This document shows positions 6,805 through 24,873 of a stretch of DNA of 33,353 bases, in pieces. A program made the translations under genes and the position numbers. The stretch is from an uncultured archaeon (GTDB lineage Archaea; Asgardarchaeota; Thorarchaeia; Thorarchaeales; Thorarchaeaceae). The notes beneath the pieces were generated by a model. The model was not told where the DNA came from. It made no database searches and saw only the letters and a list, made by a program, of their open reading frames with translations. The stretch covers positions 1 through 33,353 of the forward strand of contig CAYYQL010000028.1 of the NCBI GenBank assembly GCA_964473825.1. Reading direction: 5' to 3'. The number at the start of each line of letters is the position of its first letter. Position 1 is the first letter of the stretch.

Positions 6805-9102
6805 CTAGCGTCGTATGTAAAACCGGCGACTCATCTCTTCGCCGAGAAAAGCAAGCACGCGTCGATCGACCATGGCAACACCATCCATCATCTTCAGAGC
6901 ACGTGCCATATTGGAAAAGACGGCATTGAGATACGGTTGAGACCTCAATGTCTCTGATTGATCAACCATCTGCAGATAGGCCTCTGTTATCTTGATCAGG
7001 CCCAACCAGTCATCTGATAGGATGAAACTGAAGTGCGTATCTGAGAAGCGCTCGGCCAACCTTGGCTGCTGGGTGCGGTCAATACTGGCTCTGTACCGGT
7101 TCTCCAGAACTAGAGCGAATTGAAAGAGGACACTTGAGAGGGACAGTGCCGTCGCCTTGATGAACTCCGAAGACTCGTCGAATGAAGAACCACTGGCTTC
7201 AACCTCCTGAAGCTTGACAGCTGAATCATACAGACCAGTAGCAAGTTCTGAATAGTCTCTGTTCCGATAGAATAAATGAAGTGTCTGAGCCAAGCTCGTC
7301 TGGCCCCTCCAGTATTGAGCAAGGAGGGAGTCGGTGTTATCCACGCTTTGTGTCACAGGATCCGAGACCTCACCTGTCATCTCAAGCTTCACAGAATCGA
7401 GATTCAGCTTCGAAATAGCAAGAGCCTGCATCAGAGGGACAACATCCATGATTCCATTATCCTGACTAGCAAGAGAACTGCAACGATTTCGAAGGGTCAG
7501 CCACGAATTGTTCATGAATGGTACAACAAGTGCTACGCCATCAATGAATACATCATCGTTCGTTGCTCGAGCATCGGACAGCATCCTATCGATGTCATCG
7601 AGAAGTCTCAGGAAACGGTCGGGCATGGAGCCTCCGTGTCGAAGAGTCAACCAGACAGTATTGTATGTAGCTATTGCGACTTCTGTGAATGCACGGGTAT
7701 CAGTTGGAAACAAAGGTGTGTATTGGACCAGTAGCCTACGAATAGACGCGTAGTCAACACCCACAGGAGTCTCAAGCTTACGAAGCCTTGACAATTCTAG
7801 ACCGATCTGGCTTCCGAGCAGGACCAGTTCCGATATCCTTCCGTCGCTGAGCAGTTTCGTTCTCATATCAACTGCACGTTCAAAGGCTTCGATGCCTGTG
7901 TCCCAGAACTCATTAGACTCACACGCAAGACATAGCCAGCCTATCGAGTGGTCACAGACCGCCAGCTCAAGTTCAGCATCCTCGATATCCCCGAGGATAG
8001 AGCGGGCGCGGGACAAATACTCCAGTGAGAGAGTAATGCTTCGATGGTCGCTCTGAAGACCATGCGTGAATCCAAGGGCAGCAAGGCATCTGTAGAGGTG
8101 CATGTTCTGCTCCTGAGTAAGACCTTCCATGCCCTCATAGATACTCAGGCACTCCTCCAGTCGCTTAATAGCCTCAGGAACACCCTCAAACCATCCATTT
8201 GCCAGGATATTCGATCCAATTAAGAGATAGGCAAGACCGAGGTCATCTTTGGAAGCAAGTTCAATGTTCACGGCCTCTCTGTATAGAGAGGTGGCTGTAT
8301 CAGCCAGTGCTCTGGCAGTCTGGTGATGCACTGAGTCGTCACGGGTTTCGTTGATGGCCAGCTGGAGGGTCACATCTGCCAGTTTGATGCTGTCATGCTC
8401 CTTCTTAGCAAGGTCAGCAAGTCCGTGCAAGATGTTACGTGACTGTTGATACTTGCCCAGCTCGGTCAGGACAGCGGCTTCATCCAAAGATAGATCGAAA
8501 TGCGTTTCCTCCATGTTCATGTCTCGAGAGAAACCAATCAGGCGGTTGAGCAGTACATCGGCACAATCAAACATACCTTCACGAAGAAGCATATGAATGG
8601 CATAGTGAGACTCATGAATGGCCAGTTTTGTGGACGCTTCATGACCGCGTTCGAAGATAGCCTGGAGGGTCAGCAAAGTCTCATCGGTGAGAAAGGGTAA
8701 GAGGGGGCGCAGGTTGAGACTCATGGCCGTGTACATGGACTGTGCGAGGTCGCCCAGAATATCGAGCAAGACCGGGATTGTATGCACATCTGGAAGTAGT
8801 TCGCTCTCTTCTCGTCTATGTGCCGTTGTGAACCTAGTATCTAGCAGCTGAAGCATCTGAGGAAGAGTTCGGTCCTCCCTGAAAGAGAGACGCACCGACA
8901 GTTCCGTGAGCTTCGCACTGGCAATACCCGGCCTACGAAGGATGATCTCCTCAACTGCTCGAGCAACCTCGAATGCAATATCAACGTCGTCTTCTTTTCG
9001 TCTTGATATGTTCTGAATCGCTGACAACCCGTCATCAAGAGACATGGCTCCGCAGAGGATGTCTCTCAGTGTGACGATTGCCAATGATTCCACTATTCTC
9101 AT
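6805..9102 (-). CDS. Large helical TPR-like/alpha-solenoid protein of unknown function
   Basis: 765-aa Leu/Ala-rich ORF filling the gap between flanking genes; TPR-like helices (LGLAYLLIG, LAALGFTH, LAVCDHSIGWL, GIEAFERAVDMR). Confidence 0.7.
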   Translation of the reverse strand: MRIVESLAIVTLRDILCGAMSLDDGLSAIQNISRRKEDDVDIAFEVARAVEEIILRRPGIASAKLTELSVRLSFREDRTLPQMLQLLDTRFTTAHRREESELLPDVHTIPVLLDILGDLAQSMYTAMSLNLRPLLPFLTDETLLTLQAIFERGHEASTKLAIHESHYAIHMLLREGMFDCADVLLNRLIGFSRDMNMEETHFDLSLDEAAVLTELGKYQQSRNILHGLADLAKKEHDSIKLADVTLQLAINETRDDSVHHQTARALADTATSLYREAVNIELASKDDLGLAYLLIGSNILANGWFEGVPEAIKRLEECLSIYEGMEGLTQEQNMHLYRCLAALGFTHGLQSDHRSITLSLEYLSRARSILGDIEDAELELAVCDHSIGWLCLACESNEFWDTGIEAFERAVDMRTKLLSDGRISELVLLGSQIGLELSRLRKLETPVGVDYASIRRLLVQYTPLFPTDTRAFTEVAIATYNTVWLTLRHGGSMPDRFLRLLDDIDRMLSDARATNDDVFIDGVALVVPFMNNSWLTLRNRCSSLASQDNGIMDVVPLMQALAISKLNLDSVKLEMTGEVSDPVTQSVDNTDSLLAQYWRGQTSLAQTLHLFYRNRDYSELATGLYDSAVKLQEVEASGSSFDESSEFIKATALSLSSVLFQFALVLENRYRASIDRTQQPRLAERFSDTHFSFILSDDWLGLIKITEAYLQMVDQSETLRSQPYLNAVFSNMARALKMMDGVAMVDRRVLAFLGEEMSRRFYIRR

Positions 9103-9150: not shown

Positions 9151-9864
9151 CTATTCTATCAAGAACTCGGTCCACGAACGTGAGGTCTCAGTCCCTCGCA
9201 TTCGCTCCATCCTCACGTAATGACGAGGTCCTGAATCGGAATCGTCAATTCTGAATCGTAGCACGGCATCAGCGATGTAAGAAAAGGTGGCATAGGTCTT
9301 GTCATCATGAACACCCTCCTCAAGAATGTACATAATACTGTGTGACCCCTGTTTGAGTCGTCCGCTCAGGCGTTGAACCGCACGGGGCATCTTGGCAGGA
9401 TTGGAATGCAGGATAAGCGTTGAGAGGCTATCGATCACGACTCGAGCAACAACAAGGTTCTCAAGCACTTCCGAGAGAACTATCCCCAATTCGCTGATAT
9501 CGTCCACTTTTGCAAGAGAATAAGAACTCTTGCTCTGAGGTGCGCCCATGCGTTCAGAGTAACCATCGATGAAGACGAACTGACCGGACTCCTCGTATTC
9601 CTCAATCGACCAACCGTGACGACTCATGTCATTTCGAATGACTCTGGGAGAAACGTCGGTGGTAACAAACACGGCCGGAAATCCGAGACGAAGTCCCTCT
9701 GCAAGAAAGCCCTCAGCATAGGTTGTCTTGCCACAACCTATCGGCCCGAGAAGCATGATTGATACTTGCGTCAGCTGACCGAACTCCACCAGATCGCCAA
9801 GCATCGGAGTTACTTTGGCAGATTCTGAACCAGATATTTCCGAGCCCTTATCGTTCATGTACAT
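9151..9864 (-). CDS. KaiC/RAD55-like RecA-superfamily ATPase, single domain, CII-like, lacks the EE pair
   Basis: Walker A GPIGCGKT, Walker B RVVIDS, FSYIADAV, arginine-finger ERMRG; TTDV in place of TxEE. Confidence 0.85.
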   Translation of the reverse strand: MYMNDKGSEISGSESAKVTPMLGDLVEFGQLTQVSIMLLGPIGCGKTTYAEGFLAEGLRLGFPAVFVTTDVSPRVIRNDMSRHGWSIEEYEESGQFVFIDGYSERMGAPQSKSSYSLAKVDDISELGIVLSEVLENLVVARVVIDSLSTLILHSNPAKMPRAVQRLSGRLKQGSHSIMYILEEGVHDDKTYATFSYIADAVLRFRIDDSDSGPRHYVRMERMRGTETSRSWTEFLIE

Positions 9865-9875
9865 ACACCTTCAGT

Positions 9876-10619
9876 CTAGCTACCAGGACTGATCTCACCT
9901 GGCCATACCCTGATACCTTCATCGGTAATCCGCATGGAGTGAATACGAGAGCTATGTTTCGAGCCCCTCAATTTCAGTACCTCTATCGATCGTGTCCGTG
10001 ATGTATCACTTATCTTCTCGTTGTAGAGTACTATTACGCCGGACGCCAGGAAGGCCTCTATGTCAAAGACACCAAGTCCCGTATCCCGGGCGGGTATCTC
10101 GCTGGTCAGAACTAGGGTGGTGTCCTTCTCGGTTATGCTAGCGCATAGTTTGAAAAATTCCTCTCGCAGAATGTCTCGACTCTTGAATTTGTATGCCAGA
10201 ATGGACAGTGTGTCAATCACTACTCTCTTCGCATTGATCCTATCGATATGGCTGTGGATTATCGCCTCCAATCCTGATAGGTCAAAGCTGGGATACTCAT
10301 ACAGGTTCTTCGGTTGAGGATGTGCAGGAGACAGATCAACAATGGCCATCTTCCCCTGTTTCACCAGTTCTTCCAGATCCATACCGAATCTCATCATATT
10401 CCGCTTGATAGCACTGGGGGGTTCCTCTAGAGTTACCAGAACGCCAGGCTCGTCATAGACGGCGGCGCCTTTGTAGATGAACTGGTTGGCGAGAATGCTC
10501 TTACCAGTACCCGCCTTCCCTGCCACAAGTATCGTGTCCCCCTTAGGAAATCCGCCCTCGATCAGCTCATCCAGACCAGGGATACCTGTCTTAATCCGCT
10601 CAATTGTATAGTCATTCAT
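9876..10619 (-). CDS. KaiC-like RecA-superfamily ATPase, single domain, CI-like
   Basis: TGIPGLDELIEGGFP, Walker A GKAGTGKS, catalytic TLEE, RVVIDT, EAFLASGVIVL, IEVLKLRGSKH. Confidence 0.92.
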   Translation of the reverse strand: MNDYTIERIKTGIPGLDELIEGGFPKGDTILVAGKAGTGKSILANQFIYKGAAVYDEPGVLVTLEEPPSAIKRNMMRFGMDLEELVKQGKMAIVDLSPAHPQPKNLYEYPSFDLSGLEAIIHSHIDRINAKRVVIDTLSILAYKFKSRDILREEFFKLCASITEKDTTLVLTSEIPARDTGLGVFDIEAFLASGVIVLYNEKISDTSRTRSIEVLKLRGSKHSSRIHSMRITDEGIRVWPGEISPGS

Positions 10620-10948
10620 TAGTCAACACCTCTGCTTTGTGATAGACGAGATCCAAGTATCATCTTCAGGAGTGCATCGGGTTCGGGTATGCCTGTAACG
10701 GCCACCCCTCCAATCATTATCGTAGGCAATGCAAACACACCGTATTCCTCTGCCACCTCGGGGTTCTCAGAGACATTGATTGTGTTGACTCTGAACATGT
10801 CAGACTCGAACTCGCCTATGGTCTCCAACAGAACTTCTTCAGCACGAGGACAGAAGGCACAGGTGTCAGACTTGAAGAAGATTATCTCTATCTGAGAGAA
10901 ATCAGCGTCTTGTTCGACCGCTTCTTGACTCTCTCCATCTTCAACCAA
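10619..10948 (-). CDS. Thioredoxin-fold redox-active disulfide protein (CAFC)
   Basis: CAFCP and INVSENPEVAEEYGVFALPTI. Its stop overlaps the KaiC-like start by 1 nt (TAATG). Confidence 0.85.
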   Translation of the reverse strand: MVEDGESQEAVEQDADFSQIEIIFFKSDTCAFCPRAEEVLLETIGEFESDMFRVNTINVSENPEVAEEYGVFALPTIMIGGVAVTGIPEPDALLKMILGSRLSQSRGVD

Positions 10949-11037
10949 TGAACCGTCTCCTAGGCCGCGCCGAGGCTAAGGCGCATGAGGTAACAAATCA
11001 CTTGAATGTTTCTCACACATCTCTCTGAGGGCAGGAG

Positions 11038-11415
11038 CTATTCCATGAGATGTCGGATCTTGGTGGCGGCCTTACCAACGGCCCGTGCATGATACCTGAT
11101 TCGCTTCGGCATGAGAGCTGCAAGAATGAAGGGTTGACGTGTGCCTGCAACCTTCTTGAAGACTGCTTTTCCCTCAGAGCAGCGCACAGTGATATCGCGG
11201 AGCTGTCCCAGTTTCAGTTCATCTCTCATCCGTTCAACAGTAGATGCAACATATCCCGACATAGCCGCAACCACCTCCCGATTTGTAGTAGGACTCGCAG
11301 CAGAGGCCATAAGCAGACCGTCTTCTCTAGCCAGTATAGACGCACCAAATCCGCCCTCTCTGTTCATCTCTTCCAGGATCTCTGCCAAGGCTCTATAGTC
11401 AGGACGCTTATCCAT
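11038..11415 (-). CDS. Roadblock/LC7 (MglB/LAMTOR-like) domain protein
   Basis: SILAREDGLLMAS...VVAAMS...LKLGQLRDITVRCSEG is the typical roadblock pattern; 125 aa. Confidence 0.88.
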   Translation of the reverse strand: MDKRPDYRALAEILEEMNREGGFGASILAREDGLLMASAASPTTNREVVAAMSGYVASTVERMRDELKLGQLRDITVRCSEGKAVFKKVAGTRQPFILAALMPKRIRYHARAVGKAATKIRHLME

Positions 11416-11538
11416 TTCTCACACCCGGTCCTAGGACCGCATGCTTTGAATTGCGCATCCACTATTAAAGTATGACCTGCTCTACTCTAACCCAGAAAGC
11501 ATTCGCTCTTCTGAGAGTTGCATTCCACCACAGTAGGA

Positions 11539-11544
11539 TTTTAA
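11539..11544 (+). promoter_or_regulatory. Putative archaeal TATA box (TTTTAA) for the small GTPase gene
   Basis: AT-rich box about 30 bp upstream of GTG 11575. A reverse TTTAAT at 11464-11469 may serve the roadblock gene. Confidence 0.45.
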
Positions 11545-11574
11545 GGTCGAATACTCATCAAAGATTACAGGGAA

Positions 11575-12117
11575 GTGAATAGTGTGCCAGCCGAATACCG
11601 ATTCAAGGTCGTTATGCTGGGAGATGGAGCAGTAGGGAAGACTGCGCTTACCACACGGTTCACTCAAGATCATTTTAGTGCCGATTACAAACGTACGATT
11701 GGAAGCGATTTTGCTGTCAAACGGTTGGTTCTTCCCGAACGAGACAGCAATGTCACCATTCAAGTCTGGGATCTTGCTGGTCAGCCCAGATTCGAGATTG
11801 TTCGACAGTCGTTCTACCGCGGTGCGAGAGGTGCACTCCTTGTCTACGACGTCACCCGGAGGAGGACATTCCTGAATCTCGACCGCTGGCGAAAGGAAGC
11901 ATCTGATAACACAGGCCGAGAGATTCCCGTAGTCGTCGTTGCAAACAAGGTGGACCTTGAAGAGAGCAGAGTAGTGCAGACCGAGATGGGCAAACAGTAT
12001 GCTGAGAGCATCGACTCCATATACGTTGAGTCAAGCGCTTTGACCGGGGAGAACGTTGAGAAGGCATTTGAGCAACTATGCACGATCATGATTGACTCAA
12101 GTAGAAGCAAATCCTGA
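11575..12117 (+). CDS. Rab-like small GTPase
   Basis: GDGAVGKT, TIGSDF, WDLAGQPRF, FYRGA, NKVD, SSA; no terminal prenylation Cys motif. Confidence 0.93.
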   Translation: MNSVPAEYRFKVVMLGDGAVGKTALTTRFTQDHFSADYKRTIGSDFAVKRLVLPERDSNVTIQVWDLAGQPRFEIVRQSFYRGARGALLVYDVTRRRTFLNLDRWRKEASDNTGREIPVVVVANKVDLEESRVVQTEMGKQYAESIDSIYVESSALTGENVEKAFEQLCTIMIDSSRSKS

Positions 12118-12126
12118 GTTTTTCGG

Positions 12127-13266
12127 CTATTTCATGCGCCTAGGTTTCCCCTTGAGCAGACCAAGACCCTTCTTGCACTGCCATAGAACATAGAACACTC
12201 GCTTGTCCCGAAGAACCTCTGGGTCATATTGACTGCGAAGGTCCTCAAACTTCTGGATAAGCTCATCCCGTCTTGAGCCGCCCGTGTCGGAGTTGACCTC
12301 TTCTAAGAGCTGTTCAAACGGCTCCATCACATGCTCCAACTCGGCGATGTCCCAGCGGATGATGGCTCCACTTCCATCAGATGTCAGGAATCCTCGTTCA
12401 TTGTGAATCCATTCGATTCCGTCAATCTCGCTGTCTGTTGTGGCTTCACCCACCACTTTGCCGGTCTCGAGGTTCCACACGAAGAGGTTCTTGTTGCCAG
12501 ATCCGGACACCAAGTATTTCTTATCCGTACTGAACACAACTGACCGCACCTCGCCAGAGTGCCCACGTAAAACACACTCCTTAACTAGCTCTTCTCCCGA
12601 CGAGTCCCAGATAATGATATCGTGATCAGAAGACCCGGAAGCCACACGAGAGCCATCAATGGAAAAGCGAACAACCTGTACAGCAGTTCGATGTTCATCA
12701 ATCCATTGCTTTTTCTCGCCAGTGTTTCCATCCCACAACCCGATTGATGCATCAACACTTCCCGACACTATCTTCGCATCGACCGGGGACCATTCACAGC
12801 TCACAACGTAGAGGGAGTGACCCTTCATTCTGTGTATCTTCTCTCGATTGTCGACATCCCAGATGATCATCGTTGTATCGCCACTCCCTGAGAGCAGCTT
12901 GCTGCCATCGGGTGAGAAAGACAGGGACAGGACTGGGTAAGTGTGTCCCTCTAGTCTGGCCAGGCATTCACCGGTTCGTATATCCCAGAGTTTCACCACC
13001 CGATCGACGCCGCCAGAGGCTATGATGTCGCCACGCGGGCTAAAGGCGATAGATGTACAAAGAAACTCATCCTGAAGACGCTGAATCTCATCCCCGTTAG
13101 AAACATCAAATAACCGAATAGCACGGTCTTGAGTCGCCGAGGCAATCATCCGCCCAACCTTATTCATGGCGAATCTACGAGTGATATCGTCTGCCACCTT
13201 TGCAGGAGGTTTCAACACCTTGGGCCTAAGAAAAAGGGTAATCTCTGGTCTTTCCATATGGTTCAC
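12127..13266 (-). CDS. WD40-repeat beta-propeller protein with C-terminal helical, basic tail
   Basis: Repeated GH...SGS.D....WD units (about 7 blades); tail ...VLWQCKKGLGLLKGKPRRMK. The start may be ATG 13257. Confidence 0.92.
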   Translation of the reverse strand: MNHMERPEITLFLRPKVLKPPAKVADDITRRFAMNKVGRMIASATQDRAIRLFDVSNGDEIQRLQDEFLCTSIAFSPRGDIIASGGVDRVVKLWDIRTGECLARLEGHTYPVLSLSFSPDGSKLLSGSGDTTMIIWDVDNREKIHRMKGHSLYVVSCEWSPVDAKIVSGSVDASIGLWDGNTGEKKQWIDEHRTAVQVVRFSIDGSRVASGSSDHDIIIWDSSGEELVKECVLRGHSGEVRSVVFSTDKKYLVSGSGNKNLFVWNLETGKVVGEATTDSEIDGIEWIHNERGFLTSDGSGAIIRWDIAELEHVMEPFEQLLEEVNSDTGGSRRDELIQKFEDLRSQYDPEVLRDKRVFYVLWQCKKGLGLLKGKPRRMK

Positions 13267-13349
13267 CCTGAGAAGACTTGAGTTCTCGGCGAGATGTATT
13301 TGCTAAAAGTGTTATGAATAGAGAAGGCGTGCATAGATTCAGAGACCTT

Positions 13350-13916
13350 CTACATCATGCCACCGTCTTCGAGAATCTTGATTGCCAGCTCTAAGAATGA
13401 GGCCTCAACATTCTCTCCGGTCTTGGCAGAGGTCTCGATGAAGGAAGACTGAATCCCCTGCTTCCCAATGCTCTCGGCGAATGCCTTACCCTCCTCAGTT
13501 GTGACGATTGTCTGCTTCATGACAGGGTTGTCCTGGAATTGCTCTCTCAGGTCAATCTTGTTGCCTATGATCACGACAGGGATCTTCTTTCCTGCATTCT
13601 TCCAGCATTCGTCGAGCCAGTTGGGCAGGTTCTCAAACGAGGCTCGCTCGACAGTGGAGTAGACAGCAAGTGCGCCTTGAGCCCCTCGGTAGAACGTCGA
13701 ACGGACATTCTTGAAGTGTTCCTGGCCGGCAAGGTCCCAGATCTGGATACTCACGTCGTGACCACCCTCAAGGGACATCTTCTTCACTGCAAAGTCAGCA
13801 CCTATAGTAATCATGTAACTCGCCCTGAACCCCTCGCCCATGTACGTTCTTCGTAGCGAGGTCTTCCCTACCGAGCCATCTCCCATGAGAACGATTTTGA
13901 ATAACGCTGTAACCAT
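13350..13916 (-). CDS. Rab-like small GTPase with an insertion after G4
   Basis: GDGSVGKT, TIGADF, WDLAGQEHF, FYRGA, NKID, ETSAK; no C-terminal Cys. Confidence 0.93.
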   Translation of the reverse strand: MVTALFKIVLMGDGSVGKTSLRRTYMGEGFRASYMITIGADFAVKKMSLEGGHDVSIQIWDLAGQEHFKNVRSTFYRGAQGALAVYSTVERASFENLPNWLDECWKNAGKKIPVVIIGNKIDLREQFQDNPVMKQTIVTTEEGKAFAESIGKQGIQSSFIETSAKTGENVEASFLELAIKILEDGGMM

Positions 13917-16782: not shown

Positions 16783-18129
16783 TCATTCGGTTATTGCGTG
16801 TGCCTGCAGTGCGACTCGTGGCCTGAGCTCCCGTACAGGGATTCCAGTCTCCGCCGACACCTTCATTATATCATCAGCCTCGGGCTTGATGTTGATTATG
16901 CTGCCATCTGGGCCTCTTGATATTTTCACACGAATCATGTAATCTTTGTTATCGATTTCCAGCTTACAGACAATAGTCTCGCGGGCGGCCTTCAGCCGCT
17001 GCCAGGATGTGTACCGGATTCCCAGAGTACCAAGGTGCCGAATCATGACCTCGGCAATGCTCTTCAAACCGGTCTTGGCTGCAATGACTTTGACTACAAA
17101 GCAAGGTCGGTTCTTCTTGCCATATGCCGGAATCATCACCACATCATATGCTAATCCCTCCGACAGTAGCGTGTCAAACAGACTGCCCATGACTTCGCCG
17201 TCAACATCATCCACATTCGCTTCGATTACGATAACACTATCATCATTCCATTGTTCAAACACTTCAGCCCTCTCCTCTCCACGAGTGGGGGCCCTAGCCT
17301 CTTGACCAGCCTTCCCTTCCGTCTTCTCCGGTTTCTTGAGTTCTGGAGCTTCTGCAGCACCTTCCGCCTCCTTGAAATTGCCAAGTGATATCCTCATCCT
17401 GTTGGGAACCTCTCCCAGATCACGTGACCCAAACCCGGTACCCTGCTGTGAAATAATGAAATTCTCAGTGGAATCTACGTATTCCTGAGTGAGGGAAACC
17501 AGAAGGGCCGCTCCAGTGGGAGTCAGAATCTCGGTCTCGGCTCTGCCAGTGAGAAATGGAACATCATGAGCAACCAGTATCTCAGCCACAGCGGGAACTG
17601 GAACCTCCAGCTCGCCATGTTCGGTCTCGATGGTGCCACTGCCAACTGCAACTCGCGTCGCCACAAATCTCACTTCATTGAGAAGGCCCATCTTCTCAAG
17701 GAGATACACGGTTCCGACAATATCTAGAACAGTATCAACCTGGCCAGTCTCGTGGAGATGCAACTCCTCAACAGTGGTATCGTGTGCTCGCATCTCGGCC
17801 TGAAGAATCTCATCCAGTGCCCTCTCCGCCAACTTTGCGGCGGTCTTAGAGAGCTCTAGTTCCTCAGAAACAGTCTGTAACACTTCTAACATCGACTTCG
17901 GACTGAGTCGGATACCCTTATCCCCCACGACCTCGAGTCGCTTACCGTTCACTCCAGCCTTTTCCTCTTGAACAACCTTGACTCGCAGAGTCGGATCGTA
18001 GATAAGGAGGGCTGCAGCAACCGGCAACAACGCATCGTCTTCTCCCATTAGATCGAGAAGGGCAGCTAAGAACATATCTCCTGATGCACCAGCTTCTTGA
18101 ACATCGATTAGAGCAGTCTTCTTGGTCAA
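16783..18129 (-). CDS. larC: Nickel pincer cofactor nickel insertase LarC (full length)
   Basis: GASGDM, HLHETG.VD..LDIVG, HG.L.VPVPA, TPTGAA, ANVDD, KKNRP, TLGIR, KPE. TTG 18129 with an upstream GGAG SD is preferred over 18234. Confidence 0.85.
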   Translation of the reverse strand: MTKKTALIDVQEAGASGDMFLAALLDLMGEDDALLPVAAALLIYDPTLRVKVVQEEKAGVNGKRLEVVGDKGIRLSPKSMLEVLQTVSEELELSKTAAKLAERALDEILQAEMRAHDTTVEELHLHETGQVDTVLDIVGTVYLLEKMGLLNEVRFVATRVAVGSGTIETEHGELEVPVPAVAEILVAHDVPFLTGRAETEILTPTGAALLVSLTQEYVDSTENFIISQQGTGFGSRDLGEVPNRMRISLGNFKEAEGAAEAPELKKPEKTEGKAGQEARAPTRGEERAEVFEQWNDDSVIVIEANVDDVDGEVMGSLFDTLLSEGLAYDVVMIPAYGKKNRPCFVVKVIAAKTGLKSIAEVMIRHLGTLGIRYTSWQRLKAARETIVCKLEIDNKDYMIRVKISRGPDGSIINIKPEADDIMKVSAETGIPVRELRPRVALQAHAITE

Positions 18130-18295
18130 TGGAATTGGTACTCCTTTCTTTAGAGGTCTGCAACTGCAGGCTGACACTGCAATCCTTTTCTTTCTTTCGT
18201 AGTGGAGAATAAGGACGCGGCGCCACAAGGTCAATCTGTTCTTAAATAGAAACCTGCGACAGGGGCACTCACTGCCATTAATCTGTCACTATAGC

Positions 18296-19075
18296 CTATT
18301 CAGGCACGCCTCTTCTCCATTGGTCGAAGATCGCCATGTACATGCATTCAGTGGGGCTTATCCACATTGCAGATGAATCAAAGGCCTCGTCCACTAGATC
18401 GACCGGAGCATCACGAATAAGCACAGCAGGTATAGACTCATCAGACTCGCCCATGAGCACGGTACATGCAGATGCCAAGTTGTCTGCCACTGCTCTACGT
18501 GTTATCCGGAGCTCATTGCCGAATAGATCTCTACGTCCTCGGTCGTCCATGACAGGCCGGAATCCTGCCACGCCCAGGGCCATACCAATATTGCCGAGTC
18601 TGAGAGGTTGCGTTCTGCTGTCAATGATAATCACTCCAAGCTTCACTCCCCATCGTTCCCGAATCTCCTGGCTTATTCGCATAGCACTAGCCTTCGCATC
18701 GACCGGCAACAGTGAGGCATAGCCTGCTGGAACGTTAGACTTGTCAACTCCGGCATTCGCCATGAGGGTGTTGTTCTTGATGGTCAATACAACATGAGGA
18801 ATACCGCCAAGAATCTCATCCGCCTCATCTAGTACTAGCTGAGCCACAGGGGGAGTGATGTCATATTTCAGGCCCAGATTGCGAGCTACATCAGTCACTC
18901 TGACATCATCCAATTTGACAACCCTACCCTCAGTCGTGCCCAATGGGGTCTCTGCAATGCCCATGATGTCACCCACCTTGGGCTCGAGTCCTTGGGACTC
19001 CATGTGCTGCGAAATCACGCTGAGGAAGTCATCCTCTTGTGTGATGATACGAGTCCTTATCGGAAATAGTTCCAC
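18296..19075 (-). CDS. cofE: Coenzyme F420-0:L-glutamate ligase
   Basis: ANAGVDKSN, VIIIDSR..PLRLG, DDRGRRDLFGNELRIT..AVAD.LAS, MGE..E.IP. Confidence 0.9.
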   Translation of the reverse strand: MELFPIRTRIITQEDDFLSVISQHMESQGLEPKVGDIMGIAETPLGTTEGRVVKLDDVRVTDVARNLGLKYDITPPVAQLVLDEADEILGGIPHVVLTIKNNTLMANAGVDKSNVPAGYASLLPVDAKASAMRISQEIRERWGVKLGVIIIDSRTQPLRLGNIGMALGVAGFRPVMDDRGRRDLFGNELRITRRAVADNLASACTVLMGESDESIPAVLIRDAPVDLVDEAFDSSAMWISPTECMYMAIFDQWRRGVPE

Positions 19076-19162: not shown

Positions 19163-20578
19163 CTATTCTCGCTGAAGCTTCATCCGCGCACCCATTATGC
19201 ACGAGTCGCCCTTTCGTCCGCCCATCGGATTGTCCCGCGTCCCCATTGAGTTCATACATCTGGCGGTCACAGCAGCACCCATAGCAAGCCCGTCCTCAAC
19301 GAACACAACCTGACGTGATGGTTTGAGAGGCATCAGCTTGCCACTGAGAAGTTCCGCAAGAAGAAGGGCGGGTTTCTGCCCAGTCACGAGTGCTCGCCCT
19401 GTTAGCCCAAAAGAGGTTTCGGGGAGCACAATATTCCTGAAGTCACAGATGCTTATCAGACGATATGCCAGTCGGGCCATCAGTAGGTCTACGATAGCCA
19501 GGAATAGACCTCTTCCACCCTCCTCGACAATCTCGAAACCATGTCTTGATAACAGAGGCAAGTCTGAACCATTCTTGCCAACGTCTATGCCGATGAGCAA
19601 GGTCCCAGACTCGGCTGCCGCATCGGTATTCACAGGAACTGTACCGTACCGCTCCACTCCATCGGGAACTTCCTCAACTTTGATTATCTTCTCAAGCCGC
19701 TCAACCCATCGCTCCACCTTTAGATCGATATTCCTTTTGGATTGGGAAGCCAAATCGAGCATGACGGCATCAGGTCTGCTCGAGAGTCCCGAACCCTTTG
19801 CCAGAGCATCAGGAATGGCCCCTGCAAGCCCTGCAAACGAACCAACAGTATGAGCATAGGGATAGGAGTCGTCAACGACTCTGCCGGCAAGAGTCGTCCC
19901 AAAGTCCAACGTCAGAACAGGATTTCGAAAATCGATATCTGTGCCTTTGACAGCGCCTTTGATTCCTGCAGTGACAAGCTCTCCCTCCATCTCATTGGCC
20001 ACGATTTCGGTATTTGCTGGAGGAAGGCAGCTTGCGACGGCTCCATCGAAATACACCTTCTTGAGCCAAGTGTACCCTCGAACGCCGGGAGGGAGATTCT
20101 CAGGAGACATCGATGCGGTCATCTTTCGTGGTGGAACCCCAGCATCAAGACAGCCCTGTGCCAGCGCCTTGATTACGCTGTGGACTTCTTGTGGCGTTGT
20201 GAACCCTGCGCTTATGCCGGTAGACCTGACCACGAAATGGATATCCTTCTCTATGTCGAGCTTGGCCTTTGACACTGCACTCTCGAGGATATCAGCAACC
20301 ATCTCAGTGACCGATTTCTCTGTCAAGGGCACACCTGCGATTGTTTCACCAAAGCTCAACTCGTCGTCTCTTGGCTGACGGATGTCCCGTGTCATGCGTA
20401 CTTCTTTTGCCACCTCAAAGATCTCGGCAGTCTCGAGATTGGTGGCCACTATGATGCACTTGGTGGTCGTATTTCCGAGCTCTACTGACGCAACTGTATA
20501 GAATGGACCAACCTTCAGTGAGGATGCACTGACTCTTCGAGGATGTACTATTTCGGGTTTCATCAGTGTCAACTCCAT
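19163..20578 (-). CDS. Methanogenesis marker 14 family protein (DUF2114), ASKHA-fold ATPase-like
   Basis: YTVASVELGNTTTKCI, VVRSTG, ANEMEGELVTAGIK, DFRNP..LDFGTTLAG, DGLA.GAA..ARCMNS.G. ATG 20578 lies 7 bp after the mtrH stop. Confidence 0.85.
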   Translation of the reverse strand: MELTLMKPEIVHPRRVSASSLKVGPFYTVASVELGNTTTKCIIVATNLETAEIFEVAKEVRMTRDIRQPRDDELSFGETIAGVPLTEKSVTEMVADILESAVSKAKLDIEKDIHFVVRSTGISAGFTTPQEVHSVIKALAQGCLDAGVPPRKMTASMSPENLPPGVRGYTWLKKVYFDGAVASCLPPANTEIVANEMEGELVTAGIKGAVKGTDIDFRNPVLTLDFGTTLAGRVVDDSYPYAHTVGSFAGLAGAIPDALAKGSGLSSRPDAVMLDLASQSKRNIDLKVERWVERLEKIIKVEEVPDGVERYGTVPVNTDAAAESGTLLIGIDVGKNGSDLPLLSRHGFEIVEEGGRGLFLAIVDLLMARLAYRLISICDFRNIVLPETSFGLTGRALVTGQKPALLLAELLSGKLMPLKPSRQVVFVEDGLAMGAAVTARCMNSMGTRDNPMGGRKGDSCIMGARMKLQRE

Positions 20579-20585
20579 TGGTTTC

Positions 20586-21521
20586 TTAGAGGAGCTTCTT
20601 GAAGGGGTGCTCGTCGGAGGGTTCAATGCCAAGCTCAGCCTTGACAGACTCCGCAGTGAAAATGTCACCCATACTAGCTACAGGAAAAACACGTCTTGCA
20701 TTCTTCAGTGGGCCGTAGAGGACGAAATCAGCACCCATCATCTGGAGCATAAGACTGGAGGCGACATCACAGAACATGTGAACCTCCTTATCTATCTTCT
20801 TTTGGTTCTTTAGCCAGGTCCAAGATGCCGGTGCATTGTGGATTCCTGACCCGGTAGGCAACCCATAGACAGACTTCGAAACGAAGGTGAAGGCCACTGC
20901 AGAACCTGCACCAGCACCCATGGCTGTGGTTGCGGTGTCGATAAGCGGCTTCCGAACGCCGACCTCCTTCGCGAGGGCAAGAAGACCCGAAGAACTACCA
21001 TCGATTCCAGTATCTAATACTGCCCTCCGTCCGCCGATGGAAGAATCACGAGGATTGAATGCGAGGATGATGGCTGATTCTGGACCGATTGCTGCAATCT
21101 CTTCGAGTTCTTTTTTCTCCACCGAAACACTGATCGAGTTGTAGATTGCTCTGTCAAGACACCCAATCTCTTCTGCGTGTCGAAGTCCCGCCATTCGAAC
21201 TTCAGATTCTGTTGAATCGATTAGGAATGGGACATCAGAGACTTCGGTGACAAAATCAATGAACTTGTGCATGGCCTCATCAGTCTGTGAACATATCTGC
21301 AGCATACAGGGATTCCCCGTGATGTCAGACATCTCTTCTTGAGCAGCTATCTGCTCTTCCGCCTTCTCCCTGTCGAAGCTGCCCCTATTGGCGTCTTCCA
21401 GGAGTTTGTCCCCATGGTAGAAGATTGTGCCTACAAGAACCGTTGGCAACTCGCCAGGCGATCCTCCTATCTCAACATCGCAGATTTTGTAGATGACCTG
21501 TTCTTTCTCAAACACAAACAT
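20586..21521 (-). CDS. mtrH: MtrH-family methyl-pterin:corrinoid methyltransferase (canonical motifs)
   Basis: MFVFEKEQ, GG.PGE.PTVL.GTIFY, FLIDST, IYNSI, GSGIHN, GADFVLYGP. Confidence 0.92.
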   Translation of the reverse strand: MFVFEKEQVIYKICDVEIGGSPGELPTVLVGTIFYHGDKLLEDANRGSFDREKAEEQIAAQEEMSDITGNPCMLQICSQTDEAMHKFIDFVTEVSDVPFLIDSTESEVRMAGLRHAEEIGCLDRAIYNSISVSVEKKELEEIAAIGPESAIILAFNPRDSSIGGRRAVLDTGIDGSSSGLLALAKEVGVRKPLIDTATTAMGAGAGSAVAFTFVSKSVYGLPTGSGIHNAPASWTWLKNQKKIDKEVHMFCDVASSLMLQMMGADFVLYGPLKNARRVFPVASMGDIFTAESVKAELGIEPSDEHPFKKLL

Positions 21522-21523
21522 AT

Positions 21524-22228
21524 CTACATCTCCTTTCCAATCAAGACAGTACCAGATTCCATCTCGCGAACTTCAATGCCCACAGTAGTGGGATGTAGTG
21601 AAAGAGAAGCTCCCAGAACAAACTGTTCCAACAGAGATGTCATCGGATCCAAGTACAGGTTAAACTCCGGAAGAACCGATATTCCTGCACCGAGGGTTCT
21701 GCGAACGGCACGTTCGGCCTCTACAGTGAACTCAACCCAATAAGGACCCCCTTGAAACGGTTCAGTCTGGCGAGCAAGAAGAGATTCAGCCTCATCACGA
21801 ATCTTGTCCGGATCTGTGACATTCATCAAGTCGATGAGTTGCACTTGCTCTCTGAATCGGTCTATTGCCTCCATTGGAATATTCTCAATATAGGGAATCG
21901 CACCCGGTGCATTCAGAATCTTCCGATTGTCTTGGTTGATACCATATTGATGAAGACAGCTCAACGATGCACCCGTTCTGTGCCCGGGTACTTCTGGACC
22001 ACAAAGAATGAGATATCGGATGTTTGCATTCGAGATGGTGTTGACAACTACACGTTCAATGCCGATATTCTCGGTCTTGCATGTCCCGATTATGGCATAC
22101 CTGCTGTTGACTTCAATCTTCTTCCCCAGAGTGCATATAGCAACACTCAGCGATGGGTCACCTACTTCAAAATCCCCCGCAACAACAGGCCAATCTCGAG
22201 TATTGTGTTCACCAGACATCTTCTTCAC
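21524..22228 (-). CDS. mtrA: Soluble MtrA-type corrinoid protein with no transmembrane anchor and an MtrB-like C-terminal tail
   Basis: WPVVAGDF.VG, CKTENIGIE, CGPEVPGH (axial His83), GAIPYIEN, RFREQV. The C-terminal 60 aa contain no TM-length hydrophobic run. Confidence 0.9.
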   Translation of the reverse strand: MKKMSGEHNTRDWPVVAGDFEVGDPSLSVAICTLGKKIEVNSRYAIIGTCKTENIGIERVVVNTISNANIRYLILCGPEVPGHRTGASLSCLHQYGINQDNRKILNAPGAIPYIENIPMEAIDRFREQVQLIDLMNVTDPDKIRDEAESLLARQTEPFQGGPYWVEFTVEAERAVRRTLGAGISVLPEFNLYLDPMTSLLEQFVLGASLSLHPTTVGIEVREMESGTVLIGKEM

Positions 22229-22230
22229 CT

Positions 22231-23148
22231 CTAGTTGTAGGTTGGGGGATCAAACAACGCTGCGTCGCGTCCAAGAGTTCGACTGGCTTCAGCAACGGCT
22301 GTTGCCAGTGCATTTCCAATCAATGCAACAGCTGCATATACTTCCTTTGTACGGACCATTGAACCATACATTATGCAGTCAGTAGCAAACAACTGGGCTG
22401 CAACGGTTGATGCAACAACCGTAGAGAGGTGAGTGATGTCATCATCTAAGCCCTCTTGGCGTATGAACTTCCAGGCCGATGGTGCATTATGTGGACCAAG
22501 ACAGGTGGGGAGTCCAAGCTCGGACTTGATGGCAAGAATTGTCCTGTACTCGAGACCGTATCCTGCACCAACTGGCAGAGTTGCGGGATCTACCAACACT
22601 TTCTCAACACCCATTGAGCGGGATTCTTCGAGCATCTTCCGGACGGTGTCCATTCGGTCGGACAAGTTGGTTGCCCGTGGAGACCAACCCAGAACAACAG
22701 CCATGTTCAACGAGCTCTCTCGAAGCAAATCTTTCTCATCATTCTTCATCGAGAGATTGATTGAGTTGTAGATTGCTCGATCAGCGAGACCGGTCTCATC
22801 GCAATATTCGATTCCGCGTTTTCGGGCCTTCGCACTGGTAGACTCGAACATAAAGGGTCCTTCAAACGAGTTGGCAAGCCAGGAGATGTGCTTCTCCATC
22901 GCCTCAGGTGTCCGTCCGAATGCCTGTATCACGAGGGGATGGCCTGTTCTATCCTCCATTTCTACGCCGGTGGCAATCCAGTCAGAGGCCAGTTCCTCAT
23001 TAAACAACCCCTGTTTCGTGTTCTCCACAATTGGCTGTCCCTTGAAGAAGAGACCACCTATGAGGACGGTAGGGTTCTCTCCGGGCTGACCGCCTACGGT
23101 CACACCGCCGAAATCATAGGATACCTGATTCTTCTTGAACACGAACAT
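22231..23148 (-). CDS. mtrH: Second, divergent MtrH-family methyltransferase
   Basis: MFVFKKNQ, GGQPGENPTVL, FMFEST, IYNSIN, VLVDP, GPHNAPSAW, IMYG. ATG 23148 lies 10 bp after the metF stop. Confidence 0.88.
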   Translation of the reverse strand: MFVFKKNQVSYDFGGVTVGGQPGENPTVLIGGLFFKGQPIVENTKQGLFNEELASDWIATGVEMEDRTGHPLVIQAFGRTPEAMEKHISWLANSFEGPFMFESTSAKARKRGIEYCDETGLADRAIYNSINLSMKNDEKDLLRESSLNMAVVLGWSPRATNLSDRMDTVRKMLEESRSMGVEKVLVDPATLPVGAGYGLEYRTILAIKSELGLPTCLGPHNAPSAWKFIRQEGLDDDITHLSTVVASTVAAQLFATDCIMYGSMVRTKEVYAAVALIGNALATAVAEASRTLGRDAALFDPPTYN

Positions 23149-23158
23149 AGCGACTCTT

Positions 23159-24115
23159 TCACCTAGGTCTTGGGTAGAGGCCTGCACCTTTAACTAGTTC
23201 GGGGATTGCGCTCTCCCAGCCCACACCCATGATATGAATCCCATCCACTCCGTTTATCTTACGAACGTCTTCGATTGTTTCTGAGGCTATGAGGAGTCCC
23301 TCTGCTCTAACAGCTTCGCGCTTATCAGCACCCTTCAAACCTCTCCCCGCATCATCAAGCCGGGAAATCATTGAATCGGGGATCTTGATGCCAGGAATGT
23401 GCTTGTTCATGAATCTGGCCATCTTAGGACCCTTCAGAGGGATTATCCCAGCTAGGACTCCAGCATCAAGTCCGTCGATGCCCTTCATGAACTCCTCCAG
23501 ACGACTAGTATCATAAATGGCTTGGGTCTGAAAGAACCTAGCCCCCGCTGCCTGTTTCTTCTCAGTCCGCCAGATATGCATCTCAAGAGGGTCGGCATAG
23601 GGATTGAAAGTGGCTCCGATGAGGAATGTCGGGGTTCCCTCCAGTTCTTGCCCGGACAGGTCTGTTCCGTGCATGAGATGCTTGGCTATCTGTAGTGCCT
23701 GGATAGAGTCCATGTCATAGACCATCTTTGCCTCTGGATGGGATCCAAGTAGAGTATGATCACCTGTGATGAACATGAGATTACGCACGCCGAGCGCGTA
23801 GGCGCCATAGAGCTCGCTCTCAAATAGGATTCGGTTCCTGTCTCTCGCAGACATCTGCATTATGGGCTCGGCTCCAGCCTGAAGAATGAGATGGGCACAG
23901 ACCATGCTGCTCATTGTCGGTATACCCCGAACATTATCAGTGATGTTGATTGCATCACAGTATTCAGCAACCAGATGGGTGTGCTCACGGATTATGTTGG
24001 CGTCGGAACCATGAGGGGGTGTGATCTCTCCTGTTACGACTAACTCATTCTTCTCGAGTAGGGAAGCTAGATGACTGATTGGCAGGTTTGATTTCTCCAG
24101 ATTATTTGCTTGCAA
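23159..24115 (-). CDS. metF: Methylenetetrahydrofolate reductase, flavin subunit
   Basis: TGEITPP, NITDN, RDRNR, ITGDH, KKQAAGARFFQTQ, AGIIPL, IPGIKIP, GIHIM; exact start uncertain. Confidence 0.92.
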   Translation of the reverse strand: MQANNLEKSNLPISHLASLLEKNELVVTGEITPPHGSDANIIREHTHLVAEYCDAINITDNVRGIPTMSSMVCAHLILQAGAEPIMQMSARDRNRILFESELYGAYALGVRNLMFITGDHTLLGSHPEAKMVYDMDSIQALQIAKHLMHGTDLSGQELEGTPTFLIGATFNPYADPLEMHIWRTEKKQAAGARFFQTQAIYDTSRLEEFMKGIDGLDAGVLAGIIPLKGPKMARFMNKHIPGIKIPDSMISRLDDAGRGLKGADKREAVRAEGLLIASETIEDVRKINGVDGIHIMGVGWESAIPELVKGAGLYPRPR

Positions 24116-24213
24116 CCGAGCGACTTCTCTGCACCCTTATTTCATTTCCGAGCCCAAGAGATGTCAGTCACCATGTTATACGCATGTTTCTATTATACAG
24201 CGCAGGAGGATAT

Positions 24214-24873
24214 CTAGAAGAAAGCTCCGTGTTCAAGCTCTCGAGGACCACGAGCAAGGCTCCAGTCCTTGAGGTCCCAAATCTTCTTGATATTCTCTTC
24301 TTTTCCAAGAGCCTTGAGGCGATCGTATATCAGCTGCCATACACACTCGGTATCTTCATCCCTCTCGCACATACCATCCATTGAACCACCACACGGACCA
24401 TTCAAGATACCCTTGGCACAGCGTGCGATGGGACAGATGCCCCCTGTAAGATCAAGGATGCATTCTCCACACATGACACACTGCTCATGATGGTGAAATC
24501 TCTCGGGCATGTTTCCGAGAAACTCAGAGTCAGTTGCAGGGAACGATTCTTTCTCAGGATGCAGCTGCGTTAGTGTCTGGGTAGCAACGCCGCATGCTTG
24601 AACAAGGAAGGCATCGGCATTCTCAACAATCTCTTTGTTCTCTTCGAGCTCTTGCTCGAAAGCGTTGATGTCACACATTCCGCCCTCAACGAAGACGTAT
24701 CCAAGCACCTCCTTGCCATTCTCTTCCAGGAAGTCACCCATGTCCTCAAGCTGAAGGATGCCCCCCACATCACACATCTGTGCGCAGCCGGAGTCTCCAA
24801 ACAGGACAATGCGAGGCTTCCCTTCTAGCATCTCGAGTATCTTCTCGGGCGATTTCAGTTCCATGACAATCAA
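24214..24873 (-). CDS. metV: Methylene-THF reductase Fe-S/Zn subunit MetV
   Basis: GCAQMC..GG, ACG, CVMCGEC.L..TGGICPIARCAKG.LNGPCGG...CE...CVW. TTG 24873 gives the typical MIV...K start. Confidence 0.88.
   Translation of the reverse strand: MIVMELKSPEKILEMLEGKPRIVLFGDSGCAQMCDVGGILQLEDMGDFLEENGKEVLGYVFVEGGMCDINAFEQELEENKEIVENADAFLVQACGVATQTLTQLHPEKESFPATDSEFLGNMPERFHHHEQCVMCGECILDLTGGICPIARCAKGILNGPCGGSMDGMCERDEDTECVWQLIYDRLKALGKEENIKKIWDLKDWSLARGPRELEHGAFF

What the first reader, a model, noticed from the sequence alone, without database searches (positions are those of the whole stretch)
19163..24873. Membrane-free Mtr-derived methyl shuttle coupled to the folate reductase MetVF: candidate H4F/H4MPT methyl bridge
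Seen: metV, then metF-mtrH'-mtrA*-mtrH-marker 14 with gaps of only 10, 2, 2 and 7 bp. No mtrC/D/E/F/G or mcr is present in the window, and MtrA has its His ligand but no TM anchor. Known: in methanogens MtrH moves CH3 from methyl-H4MPT to the MtrA corrinoid and MtrE passes it to CoM with Na+ pumping. The MtrH family also includes an H4F-specific member (MtgA of Desulfitobacterium). MetVF is the acetogen-type methylene-H4F reductase. Partial mtrAH sets are known in non-methanogenic archaea. Inference: the second MtrH replaces MtrE as exit enzyme, giving CH3-H4F to Co-MtrA to H4MPT (or the reverse). That would be a soluble pterin-to-pterin transmethylase joining both C1-carrier branches of the Wood-Ljungdahl pathway, with marker 14 as corrinoid reactivase. 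I do not know of a characterised example.
Basis: partly seen in the sequence, partly recalled or inferred. Interest (0 to 1): 0.88.

Follow-up and report, generated by a model that had tools for sequence, protein, structure and literature searches.

The report
Soluble two-headed Mtr remnant in Thorarchaeia
An Asgard archaeon that makes no methane keeps a membrane-free version of the methanogens' vitamin-B12 methyl-transfer machine, rebuilt with two different enzyme heads and a docking tail, which probably passes methyl groups between folate and a second one-carbon carrier, a reaction I found no published example of.

Summary
Observation confirmed: metV, metF-mtrH'-mtrA*-mtrH-marker 14 (gaps 10/2/2/7 bp), then cofE, in a Thorarchaeia genome lacking mtrBCDEFG. 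mtrH'-mtrA-mtrH holds in 40/40 relatives sampled, metF abuts it in 38/40, and the triad recurs in one other Asgard family. MtrAH plus an Mtr-linked marker in Thorarchaeia is published (Adam 2022).

Not found in papers searched: (1) MtrA* replaces its membrane helix with a tail resembling the MtrB N-terminus that docks the MtrH dimer (top blind PDB and Pfam hit, weak E-values); (2) the two MtrB-contact residues are split between the paralogs, as a heterodimer predicts; (3) MtrH' is its own subfamily with a fixed, remodelled pterin pocket, and its rate covaries with MetF (rho 0.51), not MtrH.

Best reading (0.45): a tethered cobamide shuttles methyl between folate (MtrH'/MetF side) and a methanopterin-type carrier. 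Against: this genome lacks CdhD/E, so it is no Wood-Ljungdahl junction; 86/87 genomes lack MptG; several relatives keep the operon without Mer, Mtd, Ftr or Cdh. MtrH' is not MtgA. Marker 14 is ASKHA-fold; reactivase role unproven. The scan noted this operon before in other genomes.

The parts
24214..24864 (-). metV, Cys-rich small partner subunit of MetVF
   Evidence: PF12225; 12 Cys at conserved spacing; present at the locus in 21 sampled genomes, absent in 16 others
23159..24115 (-). metF, methylene-pterin reductase of the MetVF type; single copy in the genome
   Evidence: PF02219; one match per genome in 75/87; nearest non-Thorarchaeia relatives 40-44% identical
22231..23148 (-). mtrH', divergent MtrH subfamily with a remodelled pterin pocket (G32, F35, E102 at 22843-22845; N128, D187, H220, N221 kept; Arg202 at 22543-22545 corresponds to M. 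mazei Arg211)
21524..22228 (-). mtrA*, cobamide-binding domain (residues about 10-160; His83 at 21980-21982), disordered linker (170-174), beta-rich tail, no membrane helix
   Evidence: fold match to 5laa Z 26.4, rmsd 1.3, 152 aligned
21620..21682 (-). MtrB N-terminal-like hairpin inside the MtrA* tail (invariant Pro187-Glu188, matching MtrB Pro8-Glu9), the element that docks the MtrH dimer in methanogen Mtr
   Evidence: profile of 31 tails: best PDB hit 8q3v_B residues 7-26, E 0.011; Pfam MtrB best family, 8/31 members, best E 0.0035; hhalign to three MtrB E 2e-4
20586..21521 (-). mtrH, canonical methanogen-type MtrH (T32, Y35, Q75, D102, N128, D195, H228, N229, Lys patch)
   Evidence: TIGR01114 above cut-off; groups with methanogen MtrH 95/95; residues
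19163..20578 (-). methanogenesis marker 14 (DUF2114), ASKHA-fold protein; its position after mtrH is also found in a methanogen mtr operon
   Evidence: Methanosphaera mtrH-marker 14 gap of 4 bp; model pLDDT 87 and ASKHA matches, best Z 17.6, rmsd 3.7, 253 aligned
18296..19075 (-). cofE-like gamma-glutamyl ligase, probably part of the operon; the weakest F420-type of three paralogs (185 bits against 223 and 270)
   Evidence: sits between an mtrH end and marker 14 in another Asgard family; rate covaries with marker 14, rho 0.56

Best explanation
The operon encodes a soluble, re-engineered Mtr. MtrH' and MtrH form a heterodimer in place of the MtrH homodimer. MtrA* clips onto the dimer interface through its fused MtrB-like hairpin, and its His-ligated cobamide domain swings on a flexible linker between the two TIM-barrel sites. 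The canonical MtrH exchanges the methyl group with a methanopterin-type carrier (scavenged, or made without MptG). MtrH' exchanges it with folate, the pool that MetVF reduces or oxidises, so folate takes the place of CoM and MtrE and no sodium is pumped. The result joins two C1 ladders at the methyl level. In this genome, which has no acetyl-CoA synthase corrinoid protein and no methionine synthase, the link would let C1 from glycine, serine and histidine breakdown reach the Mer-Mtd-Mch-Ftr-Fwd ladder, or let that ladder supply folate C1. My estimate from remembered potentials, not computed here, is that transfer from H4MPT to H4F is downhill by roughly 20 kJ/mol. Shown: genes, synteny, residue patterns, tail similarity, rate covariation, gene inventory. 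Inferred: heterodimer, tethering, catalysis by MtrH', pterin assignments, direction.
For: Triad H'-A-H in 40/40 sampled Thorarchaeia loci and in a second Asgard family; metF adjacent in 38/40. The tail matches the MtrB N-terminus in two blind library searches. PMC12774963 shows MtrB residues 1-23 binding the MtrH dimer interface with salt bridges Arg5B-Asp5H and Glu9B-Arg211H. The Glu9 equivalent is invariant in MtrA*. Arg211 is kept in 43/43 MtrH' and in 0/41 neighbouring MtrH; the acidic residue 5 is kept in 36/41 MtrH and replaced by Lys in 40/43 MtrH'. MtrH' keeps pterin-ring residues N129, D196, H229 and N230 in 43/43 and the corrinoid-contact loop (M/L200, P201, aromatic 156; contacts from bioRxiv 10.64898/2026.07.03.736320). 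It has fixed G32, F35 and D103E and lacks the K242/K243 patch, while being as conserved as MtrH (65% against 64% mean identity). Rates covary MtrH'-MetF rho 0.51 (p 8e-5, 53 branches) against MtrH-MetF 0.19. Fhs is in 81/87 genomes and FolD in 5/5 tested, so folate is a real carrier. MetF is kept beside Mer in this genome. No MetE/Mes family gene in 87 genomes.
Against: MptG is absent from 86/87 genomes including this one, so canonical H4MPT synthesis is not shown. Genus g10 and G053 and G076 (83-97% complete) keep the operon without Mer, Mtd or CdhD/E, and Ftr was missing in the four tested; the methanopterin side has no visible outlet there. G010 (one contig) and G014 keep MtrH' with no MetF found. 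MtrH' and MtrH rates do not covary (rho 0.03). In the second Asgard family metVF is not next to mtrH'. The flanking housekeeping genes are syntenic too, which weakens synteny as evidence. The MtrB similarity spans only about 20 residues with weak E-values. D102 is essential in MtgA (PMC7154762), so D-to-E could reduce activity. Asgard MetF may be of the ANME-1 type proposed to act on H4MPT (PMC9012536).
Confidence: 0.45

Rival explanations
1. One carrier only. Thorarchaeia use a single pterin (folate, or one methanopterin-like compound on which MetF also acts, as proposed for ANME-1). MtrH' is the docking or weakly active half of the dimer. MtrA* passes the methyl group to or from something else, for example the MtaA-like enzymes and a thiol.
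For: MptG in 1/87 genomes. Operon kept where Mer, Mtd, Ftr and Cdh were not found. In methanogen Mtr, MtrA was seen bound to the membrane-proximal MtrH protomer. D103E at an essential position. Two MtaA-like genes and an MtaC-like corrinoid gene on contig C83. Mer is found in only 43/87 genomes against MetF in 75/87.
Against: MtrH' keeps four pterin-ring residues and the corrinoid-contact loop invariant, and D103E is fixed rather than variable. Its rate tracks MetF. This genome keeps both complete enzyme ladders, including both Mer and MetF.
Confidence: 0.25
2. Two neighbouring modules. MetVF plus an MtrH' homodimer works like AcsE or MtgA, exchanging methyl between folate and other corrinoid proteins (MtaC-like, CdhE). 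MtrA*-MtrH-marker 14 is a separate remnant with its own job.
For: Rate covariation splits the operon into MetF-MtrH' (0.51) and MtrA-MtrH-marker 14 (0.27-0.35), with MtrH'-MtrH at 0.03. This genome has an MtaC-like corrinoid protein and RACo homologs but no third MtrH to serve them. MetF and MtrH' both evolve about twice as fast where metV is missing from the locus, which is mostly in CdhD/E-bearing genomes.
Against: The Arg that pairs with the MtrB-type Glu is kept only in MtrH'. The H'-A-H triad persists where metF is absent or elsewhere (G010, G014, G396).
Confidence: 0.2
3. Methyl supply for methionine synthesis: MetF and MtrH load MtrA*, which donates to a core methionine synthase, as predicted for MesA.
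For: MetF normally serves methionine synthesis; MesA is predicted to take methyl from MtrA (PMC7857596).
Against: No PF01717 match in any of 87 genomes and no homocysteine methyltransferase domain in 5 tested.
Confidence: 0.04

Closest known systems
Methanogen Mtr complex MtrA-H (PMC10998594, PMC12774963, bioRxiv 10.64898/2026.07.03.736320)
   Same: MtrA cobamide domain with its His ligand on a flexible linker; canonical MtrH; MtrB N-terminal docking element; marker 14 directly after mtrH.
   Different: No MtrCDE, F, G or membrane anchor, so no CoM site and no Na+ pump. The MtrB element is fused to MtrA. There are two different MtrH instead of one, and linkage to metVF and cofE.
Thorarchaeia 'canonical MtrAH' plus marker m26 as methanogenesis remnants (Adam et al. 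2022, PMC9635834)
   Same: Same lineage and, in all likelihood, the same mtrA, mtrH and Mtr-linked marker (I did not confirm that m26 is DUF2114); suggested there to act as a methyltransferase.
   Different: The passages and supplement I searched do not mention the second MtrH subfamily, the metVF linkage, the MtrB-like tail or a mechanism.
MtxXAH of Methanosarcinales (PMC12978539)
   Same: Stand-alone MtrA and MtrH homologs outside the mtr operon, function unresolved.
   Different: One MtxH, with MtxX (marker 4) rather than marker 14 in that operon; MtxA/MtxH sequences were not compared here.
MtgA of Desulfitobacterium hafniense (PMC7154762) and other Asp75-type MtrH-family enzymes
   Same: MtrH-family TIM barrel moving methyl between a corrinoid and a pterin; shows the family can use H4F.
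   Different: MtrH' has Q/E75, G32 and E102, scores 165 against a cut-off of 550, and lies outside the Asp75 group. The third MtrH copies of many Thorarchaeia, beside B12-binding and RACo genes, are the Asp75 type.
MtrA-MtrH fusions of Atabeyarchaeia and Freyarchaeia (PMC11291895)
   Same: Membrane-free MtrA and MtrH in Asgard archaea.
   Different: A single fused protein on a separate long branch, followed by a thymidylate-synthase-like gene, in genomes without marker 14.
MetVF of acetogens and MetFV of ANME-1 (PMC9012536)
   Same: metV next to metF, Cys-rich MetV.
   Different: Here coupled to an Mtr remnant; pterin substrate unresolved.

Membership tests
Membrane Mtr (MtrA-H) | MtrC, D, E membrane core | tested here: not met
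   No MtrE by HMM; no MtrC, D or E by blastp or phmmer; genome 95.7% complete
Membrane Mtr (MtrA-H) | MtrA with C-terminal membrane anchor; separate MtrB, F, G stalk subunits | tested here: not met
   No hydrophobic helix; no separate mtrB, F or G; only an MtrB N-terminal-like segment fused to MtrA
Membrane Mtr (MtrA-H) | MtrA cobamide fold with His ligand | tested here: met
   His83 invariant; Z 26.4, rmsd 1.3, 152 aligned to 5laa
Membrane Mtr (MtrA-H) | Canonical MtrH with the full pterin-site residue set | tested here: met
   Downstream copy above the TIGR01114 cut-off, groups with methanogen MtrH 95/95, residues kept
MtgA (H4F-specific MtrH-family enzyme) | NF047990 cut-off and S32/D75/D102 site | tested here: not met
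   165 and 192 bits against 550; G32/Q75/E102 in MtrH'; outside the Asp75 group, though MtgA itself was not in the tree
MtgA (H4F-specific MtrH-family enzyme) | Methyl transfer between cobalamin and H4F | not testable with these tools
   Needs an assay
MtxXAH | mtxX beside mtxA and mtxH | tested here: not met
   The genes flanking mtrA and mtrH are metF, mtrH' and marker 14 in the window and in the relatives sampled; MtrA* scores 162 against the 279 cut-off of NF010654
Wood-Ljungdahl pathway junction | Corrinoid iron-sulfur protein CdhD/E to accept the methyl group | tested here: not met
   Absent in this genome; 46/87 in the class
Two-pterin metabolism | Folate-dependent enzyme set | tested here: met
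   Fhs, FolD, FtcD, GlyA, GcvPHT, FolP present; FolC and FolA not found with E. coli queries
Two-pterin metabolism | H4MPT-type enzyme set | tested here: met
   Mer, Mtd, Mch, Ftr, FwdC in this genome; patchy in relatives
Two-pterin metabolism | H4MPT biosynthesis through RFAP synthase MptG | tested here: not met
   Absent here; 1/87 in the class. Salvage or another route is not excluded; other mpt genes were not tested
RACo/RamA corrinoid reductive activators | ASKHA ATPase fold | tested here: met
   Marker 14 model matches many ASKHA folds
RACo/RamA corrinoid reductive activators | RACo-type domains with an Fe-S cluster domain | tested here: inconclusive
   Only DUF2114 matches in Pfam; RACo ranks 23rd in Foldseek among kinases and Kae1; three conserved Cys, two of them near the C-terminus
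ANME-1-type MetF (proposed H4MPT-specific) | Placement in the ANME-1 MetF clade | not tested
   No named ANME-1 MetF was available for a tree; nearest named relatives were 40-44% identical

The most novel reading that the evidence does not exclude
Thorarchaeia rebuilt the methanogen sodium pump into a soluble heterodimeric pterin-to-pterin transmethylase: an MtrA-MtrB fusion tethers one cobamide between an H4MPT-type site and a newly evolved folate site, joining two C1 pools otherwise held to be separate, with marker 14 as its ATP-dependent cobamide loading or repair factor.
Probability: 0.35. Interest if true: 0.82.

Novelty: new variant of a known kind. Interest (0 to 1): 0.66.

Why it matters
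What Mtr remnants do in archaea that make no methane is an open question, and these are Asgard archaea, the group closest to eukaryotes. The operon gives a specific, testable answer using small soluble proteins. A pterin-to-pterin methyl transfer would be a new reaction linking the folate and methanopterin C1 pools. The MtrA-MtrB fusion and the split of docking residues between two MtrH paralogs would show how a membrane ion pump was turned into a soluble enzyme. It is also a membrane-free setting in which to find the function of methanogenesis marker 14. The loss of MptG across the class questions the usual assumption that Thorarchaeia make H4MPT.

Tried and rejected
Complex prediction of MtrH'+MtrH+MtrA* gave no verdict (score 0.30, mark 0.32) and is not used as evidence either way. 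No RNA holder was listed for the operon. The ESM Atlas search of the MtrA* tail returned no usable hit. The fold search of the full MtrA* model tested only the cobamide domain, not the tail. Marker 14 has no sequence relative in the PDB. The promoter and terminator scan was at chance level and uses a bacterial consensus. The Thorarchaeota mixotrophy paper PMC5864231 is not held. Methionine synthesis was rejected as the outlet. An MtgA-like origin of MtrH' was rejected. A recent duplication of the neighbouring mtrH is not favoured, because Thorarchaeia MtrH groups with methanogen MtrH to the exclusion of MtrH', but the long MtrH' stem (0.81) leaves its origin unresolved and no topology test was run. 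MtxH, MtoA and MtgA sequences were not in the tree.

Full report
Observation. The genes are as described, all on the minus strand: metV (24864-24214), metF (24115-23159), mtrH' (23148-22231), mtrA* (22228-21524), mtrH (21521-20586) and marker 14 (20578-19163), with gaps of 10, 2, 2 and 7 bp from metF onward. A cofE-like gene follows after 87 bp. Close homologs are named Candidatus Thorarchaeota. The genome is 95.7% complete. It has no MtrE by HMM and no MtrB, C, D, E, F or G by comparison with Methanosarcina and Methanosphaera subunits. MtrA* has the MtrA fold (Z 26.4, rmsd 1.3, 152 aligned), an invariant His83 and no membrane helix.

Distribution. MtrH is found in 84 of 87 genomes of the class, mostly in two or more copies. 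In 40 loci from 16 genera, mtrH'-mtrA-mtrH was always present, marker 14 followed wherever the contig reached, and metF lay directly upstream in 38. MetF is single-copy in 75 of 87 genomes. Among 400 Asgard genomes, marker 14 occurs only in this family (79/85) and in G396 of another family. G396 has the same triad at 45-50% identity, cofE between an mtrH end and marker 14, and metVF on another contig not abutting mtrH'. The pair mtrH-marker 14 is also the 3' end of the Methanosphaera mtr operon. The flanking hflX, tgtA, larC and polB are syntenic as well, so synteny alone is modest evidence.

The MtrA* tail. Instead of a membrane helix, MtrA* has a disordered linker and a 60-residue beta-rich tail with invariant Pro187-Glu188. 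A profile of 31 tails finds MtrB residues 7-26 as its best hit among 177,635 PDB sequences (E 0.011). MtrB is also the best Pfam family (8 of 31 members, best E 0.0035), and the profile aligns to three MtrB N-termini at E 2e-4. Each value is weak, but the top hit is a subunit of the same complex. In M. mazei Mtr, MtrB residues 1-23 bind the MtrH dimer interface, with salt bridges Arg5B-Asp5H and Glu9B-Arg211H, and the two active sites face opposite ways (PMC12774963). Glu188 corresponds to MtrB Glu9. Arg211 is kept in 43/43 MtrH' and none of 41 neighbouring MtrH, while an acidic residue 5 is kept in 36/41 MtrH and is Lys in 40/43 MtrH'. I infer that the ancestral docking surface has been divided between two paralogs, as in a heterodimer held to MtrA* by the fused hairpin.

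The two MtrH. The downstream copy is canonical: above the TIGR01114 cut-off, grouped with methanogen MtrH (95/95), with all pterin-site residues and the Lys patch. MtrH' forms its own clade (100/100, stem 0.81) outside the Asp75 group that holds the third MtrH copies found beside B12-binding and RACo genes, and it is far below the MtgA cut-off. It is as conserved as MtrH. It keeps N129, D196, H229 and N230 and the corrinoid-contact loop, and has fixed T32G, Y35F and D103E and no K242/K243 (residue roles from PMC12774963, PMC7154762 and bioRxiv 10.64898/2026.07.03.736320). This looks like an altered but maintained pterin site. It does not identify the pterin. Across 28 genomes and 53 branches, relative rates covary for MtrH'-MetF (rho 0.51, p 8e-5) but not MtrH'-MtrH (0.03) or MtrH'-MtrA (0.15); MtrH covaries with MtrA (0.31) and marker 14 (0.35). 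MtrH' is thus tied to the MetF side.

Genome context. This genome has both ladders: Fhs, FolD, FtcD, GlyA, GcvPHT and FolP; and FwdC, Ftr, Mch, Mtd and Mer. It has no CdhD/E, no MetE or Mes (0/87 in the class) and no homocysteine methyltransferase domain. Apart from the operon, the only methyl-handling genes I found are two MtaA-like and one MtaC-like gene on contig C83. The module is therefore not a junction of a complete Wood-Ljungdahl pathway here. In the class, CdhD/E is in 46/87, Mer 43/87, Mtd 59/87, Mch 81/87 and Fhs 81/87. Genus g10, G053 and G076 keep the operon without Mer, Mtd or Cdh, and Ftr was missing in the four tested. MptG, the usual first step of the methanopterin side chain (my own knowledge), is in 1 of 87. 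G010 and G014 keep MtrH' without MetF. These are real difficulties for a universal H4F/H4MPT bridge. Also unexplained: metV is at the locus in 20 Cdh-negative and 1 Cdh-positive genome, and missing from it in 14 Cdh-positive and 2 Cdh-negative genomes (kin are not independent, and metV elsewhere was not excluded).

Marker 14 and CofE. The marker 14 model (pLDDT 87) is an ASKHA fold, matching pantothenate kinase, Kae1, dehydratase activators, RACo and the diol dehydratase reactivase without a clear winner. Two RACo homologs exist elsewhere. An ATP-dependent cobamide chaperone role is plausible and unproven. The operon CofE is the least F420-like of three paralogs in a genome where FolC was not found, so it may add glutamates to a pterin; this is inference.

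Mechanism and rivals. Most likely (0.45) the tethered cobamide moves methyl between a methanopterin-type carrier at MtrH and folate at MtrH', with MetVF setting the folate side. I hold the soluble tethered architecture more firmly (about 0.65) than the pterin assignment. Rivals: one carrier with MtrH' as a docking or weak partner and another exit (0.25), which fits the MptG loss and the ANME-1 proposal for MetF (PMC9012536); two separate modules (0.2); methionine synthesis (0.04).

Novelty. Thorarchaeia MtrAH and an Mtr-linked marker are published as remnants (PMC9635834), and other Asgard MtrAH fusions are described (PMC11291895). I found no paper on the second subfamily, the metVF linkage, the MtrB-like tail or pterin-to-pterin transfer, within a library that lacks most subscription papers. 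The scan noted the operon in other genomes; those notes are not independent support. Verdict: a real, class-wide new variant of Mtr with a well-supported anatomy and an open chemistry.

Noticed in passing
class-wide genome search; L161: RFAP synthase MptG is found in only 1 of 87 Thorarchaeia genomes although Mch, Mtd and Mer are common, so the identity or source of their 'H4MPT' is open.
   Followed up: partly
L031-L070, L083: metV at the locus and CdhD/E in the genome are nearly mutually exclusive (1/21 against 14/16), with contrasts inside genera g12 and g13; MetF and MtrH' evolve about twice as fast where metV is missing.
   Followed up: partly
L097:4028-5341, L105:8731-10005, also L100-L106, L109, L110: In other Asgard families the MtrA-MtrH fusion is followed by a gene of about 400-450 aa with a thymidylate-synthase-like domain; in L109 and L110 a cofE homolog and RimK-like ligases lie upstream.
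   Followed up: no
L096 and L116 (G396 contigs C86, C91): An RRXRR-family gene, likely a mobile element, follows mtrH, and a copy of the mtrH C-terminal end precedes cofE-marker 14 on another contig.
   Followed up: partly
L128:8001-12247: A metagenome locus has mtrH-marker 14 converging on mtrB-mtrA and two small genes, with no mtrCDE nearby; possibly another stage of Mtr break-up.
   Followed up: no
L071-L086: Many Thorarchaeia have a third, Asp75-type MtrH beside a B12-binding protein and a RACo activator; this genome lacks it.
   Followed up: partly
L117 (G000 contig C83:1639-4831): Two MtaA/CmuA-like genes flank an MtaC-like corrinoid gene; a possible methyl donor or acceptor system.
   Followed up: partly
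L049, L050, L052, L055, L057, L069, L070, L083: One or two family-5 solute-binding protein genes are inserted just upstream of metF, sometimes between metV and metF.
   Followed up: no
window 2747-3370 (+) and 3-2063 (-): Methanogen-type thymidylate synthase (TIGR03283 above cut-off) near an anaerobic ribonucleotide reductase; a consumer of methylene-pterin in the same window.
   Followed up: partly
window 9151-13916: Two KaiC-like ATPases, a WD40 repeat protein and a Ras-family small GTPase, typical Asgard eukaryote-like genes; the 765-aa ORF at 6805-9102 has no Pfam match.
   Followed up: no
window 4721-6802 (+): An elongation factor G/2-like GTPase of 693 aa.
   Followed up: no
window 16783-18234 (-): A larC nickel-insertion gene follows cofE in nearly all relatives.
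   Followed up: no
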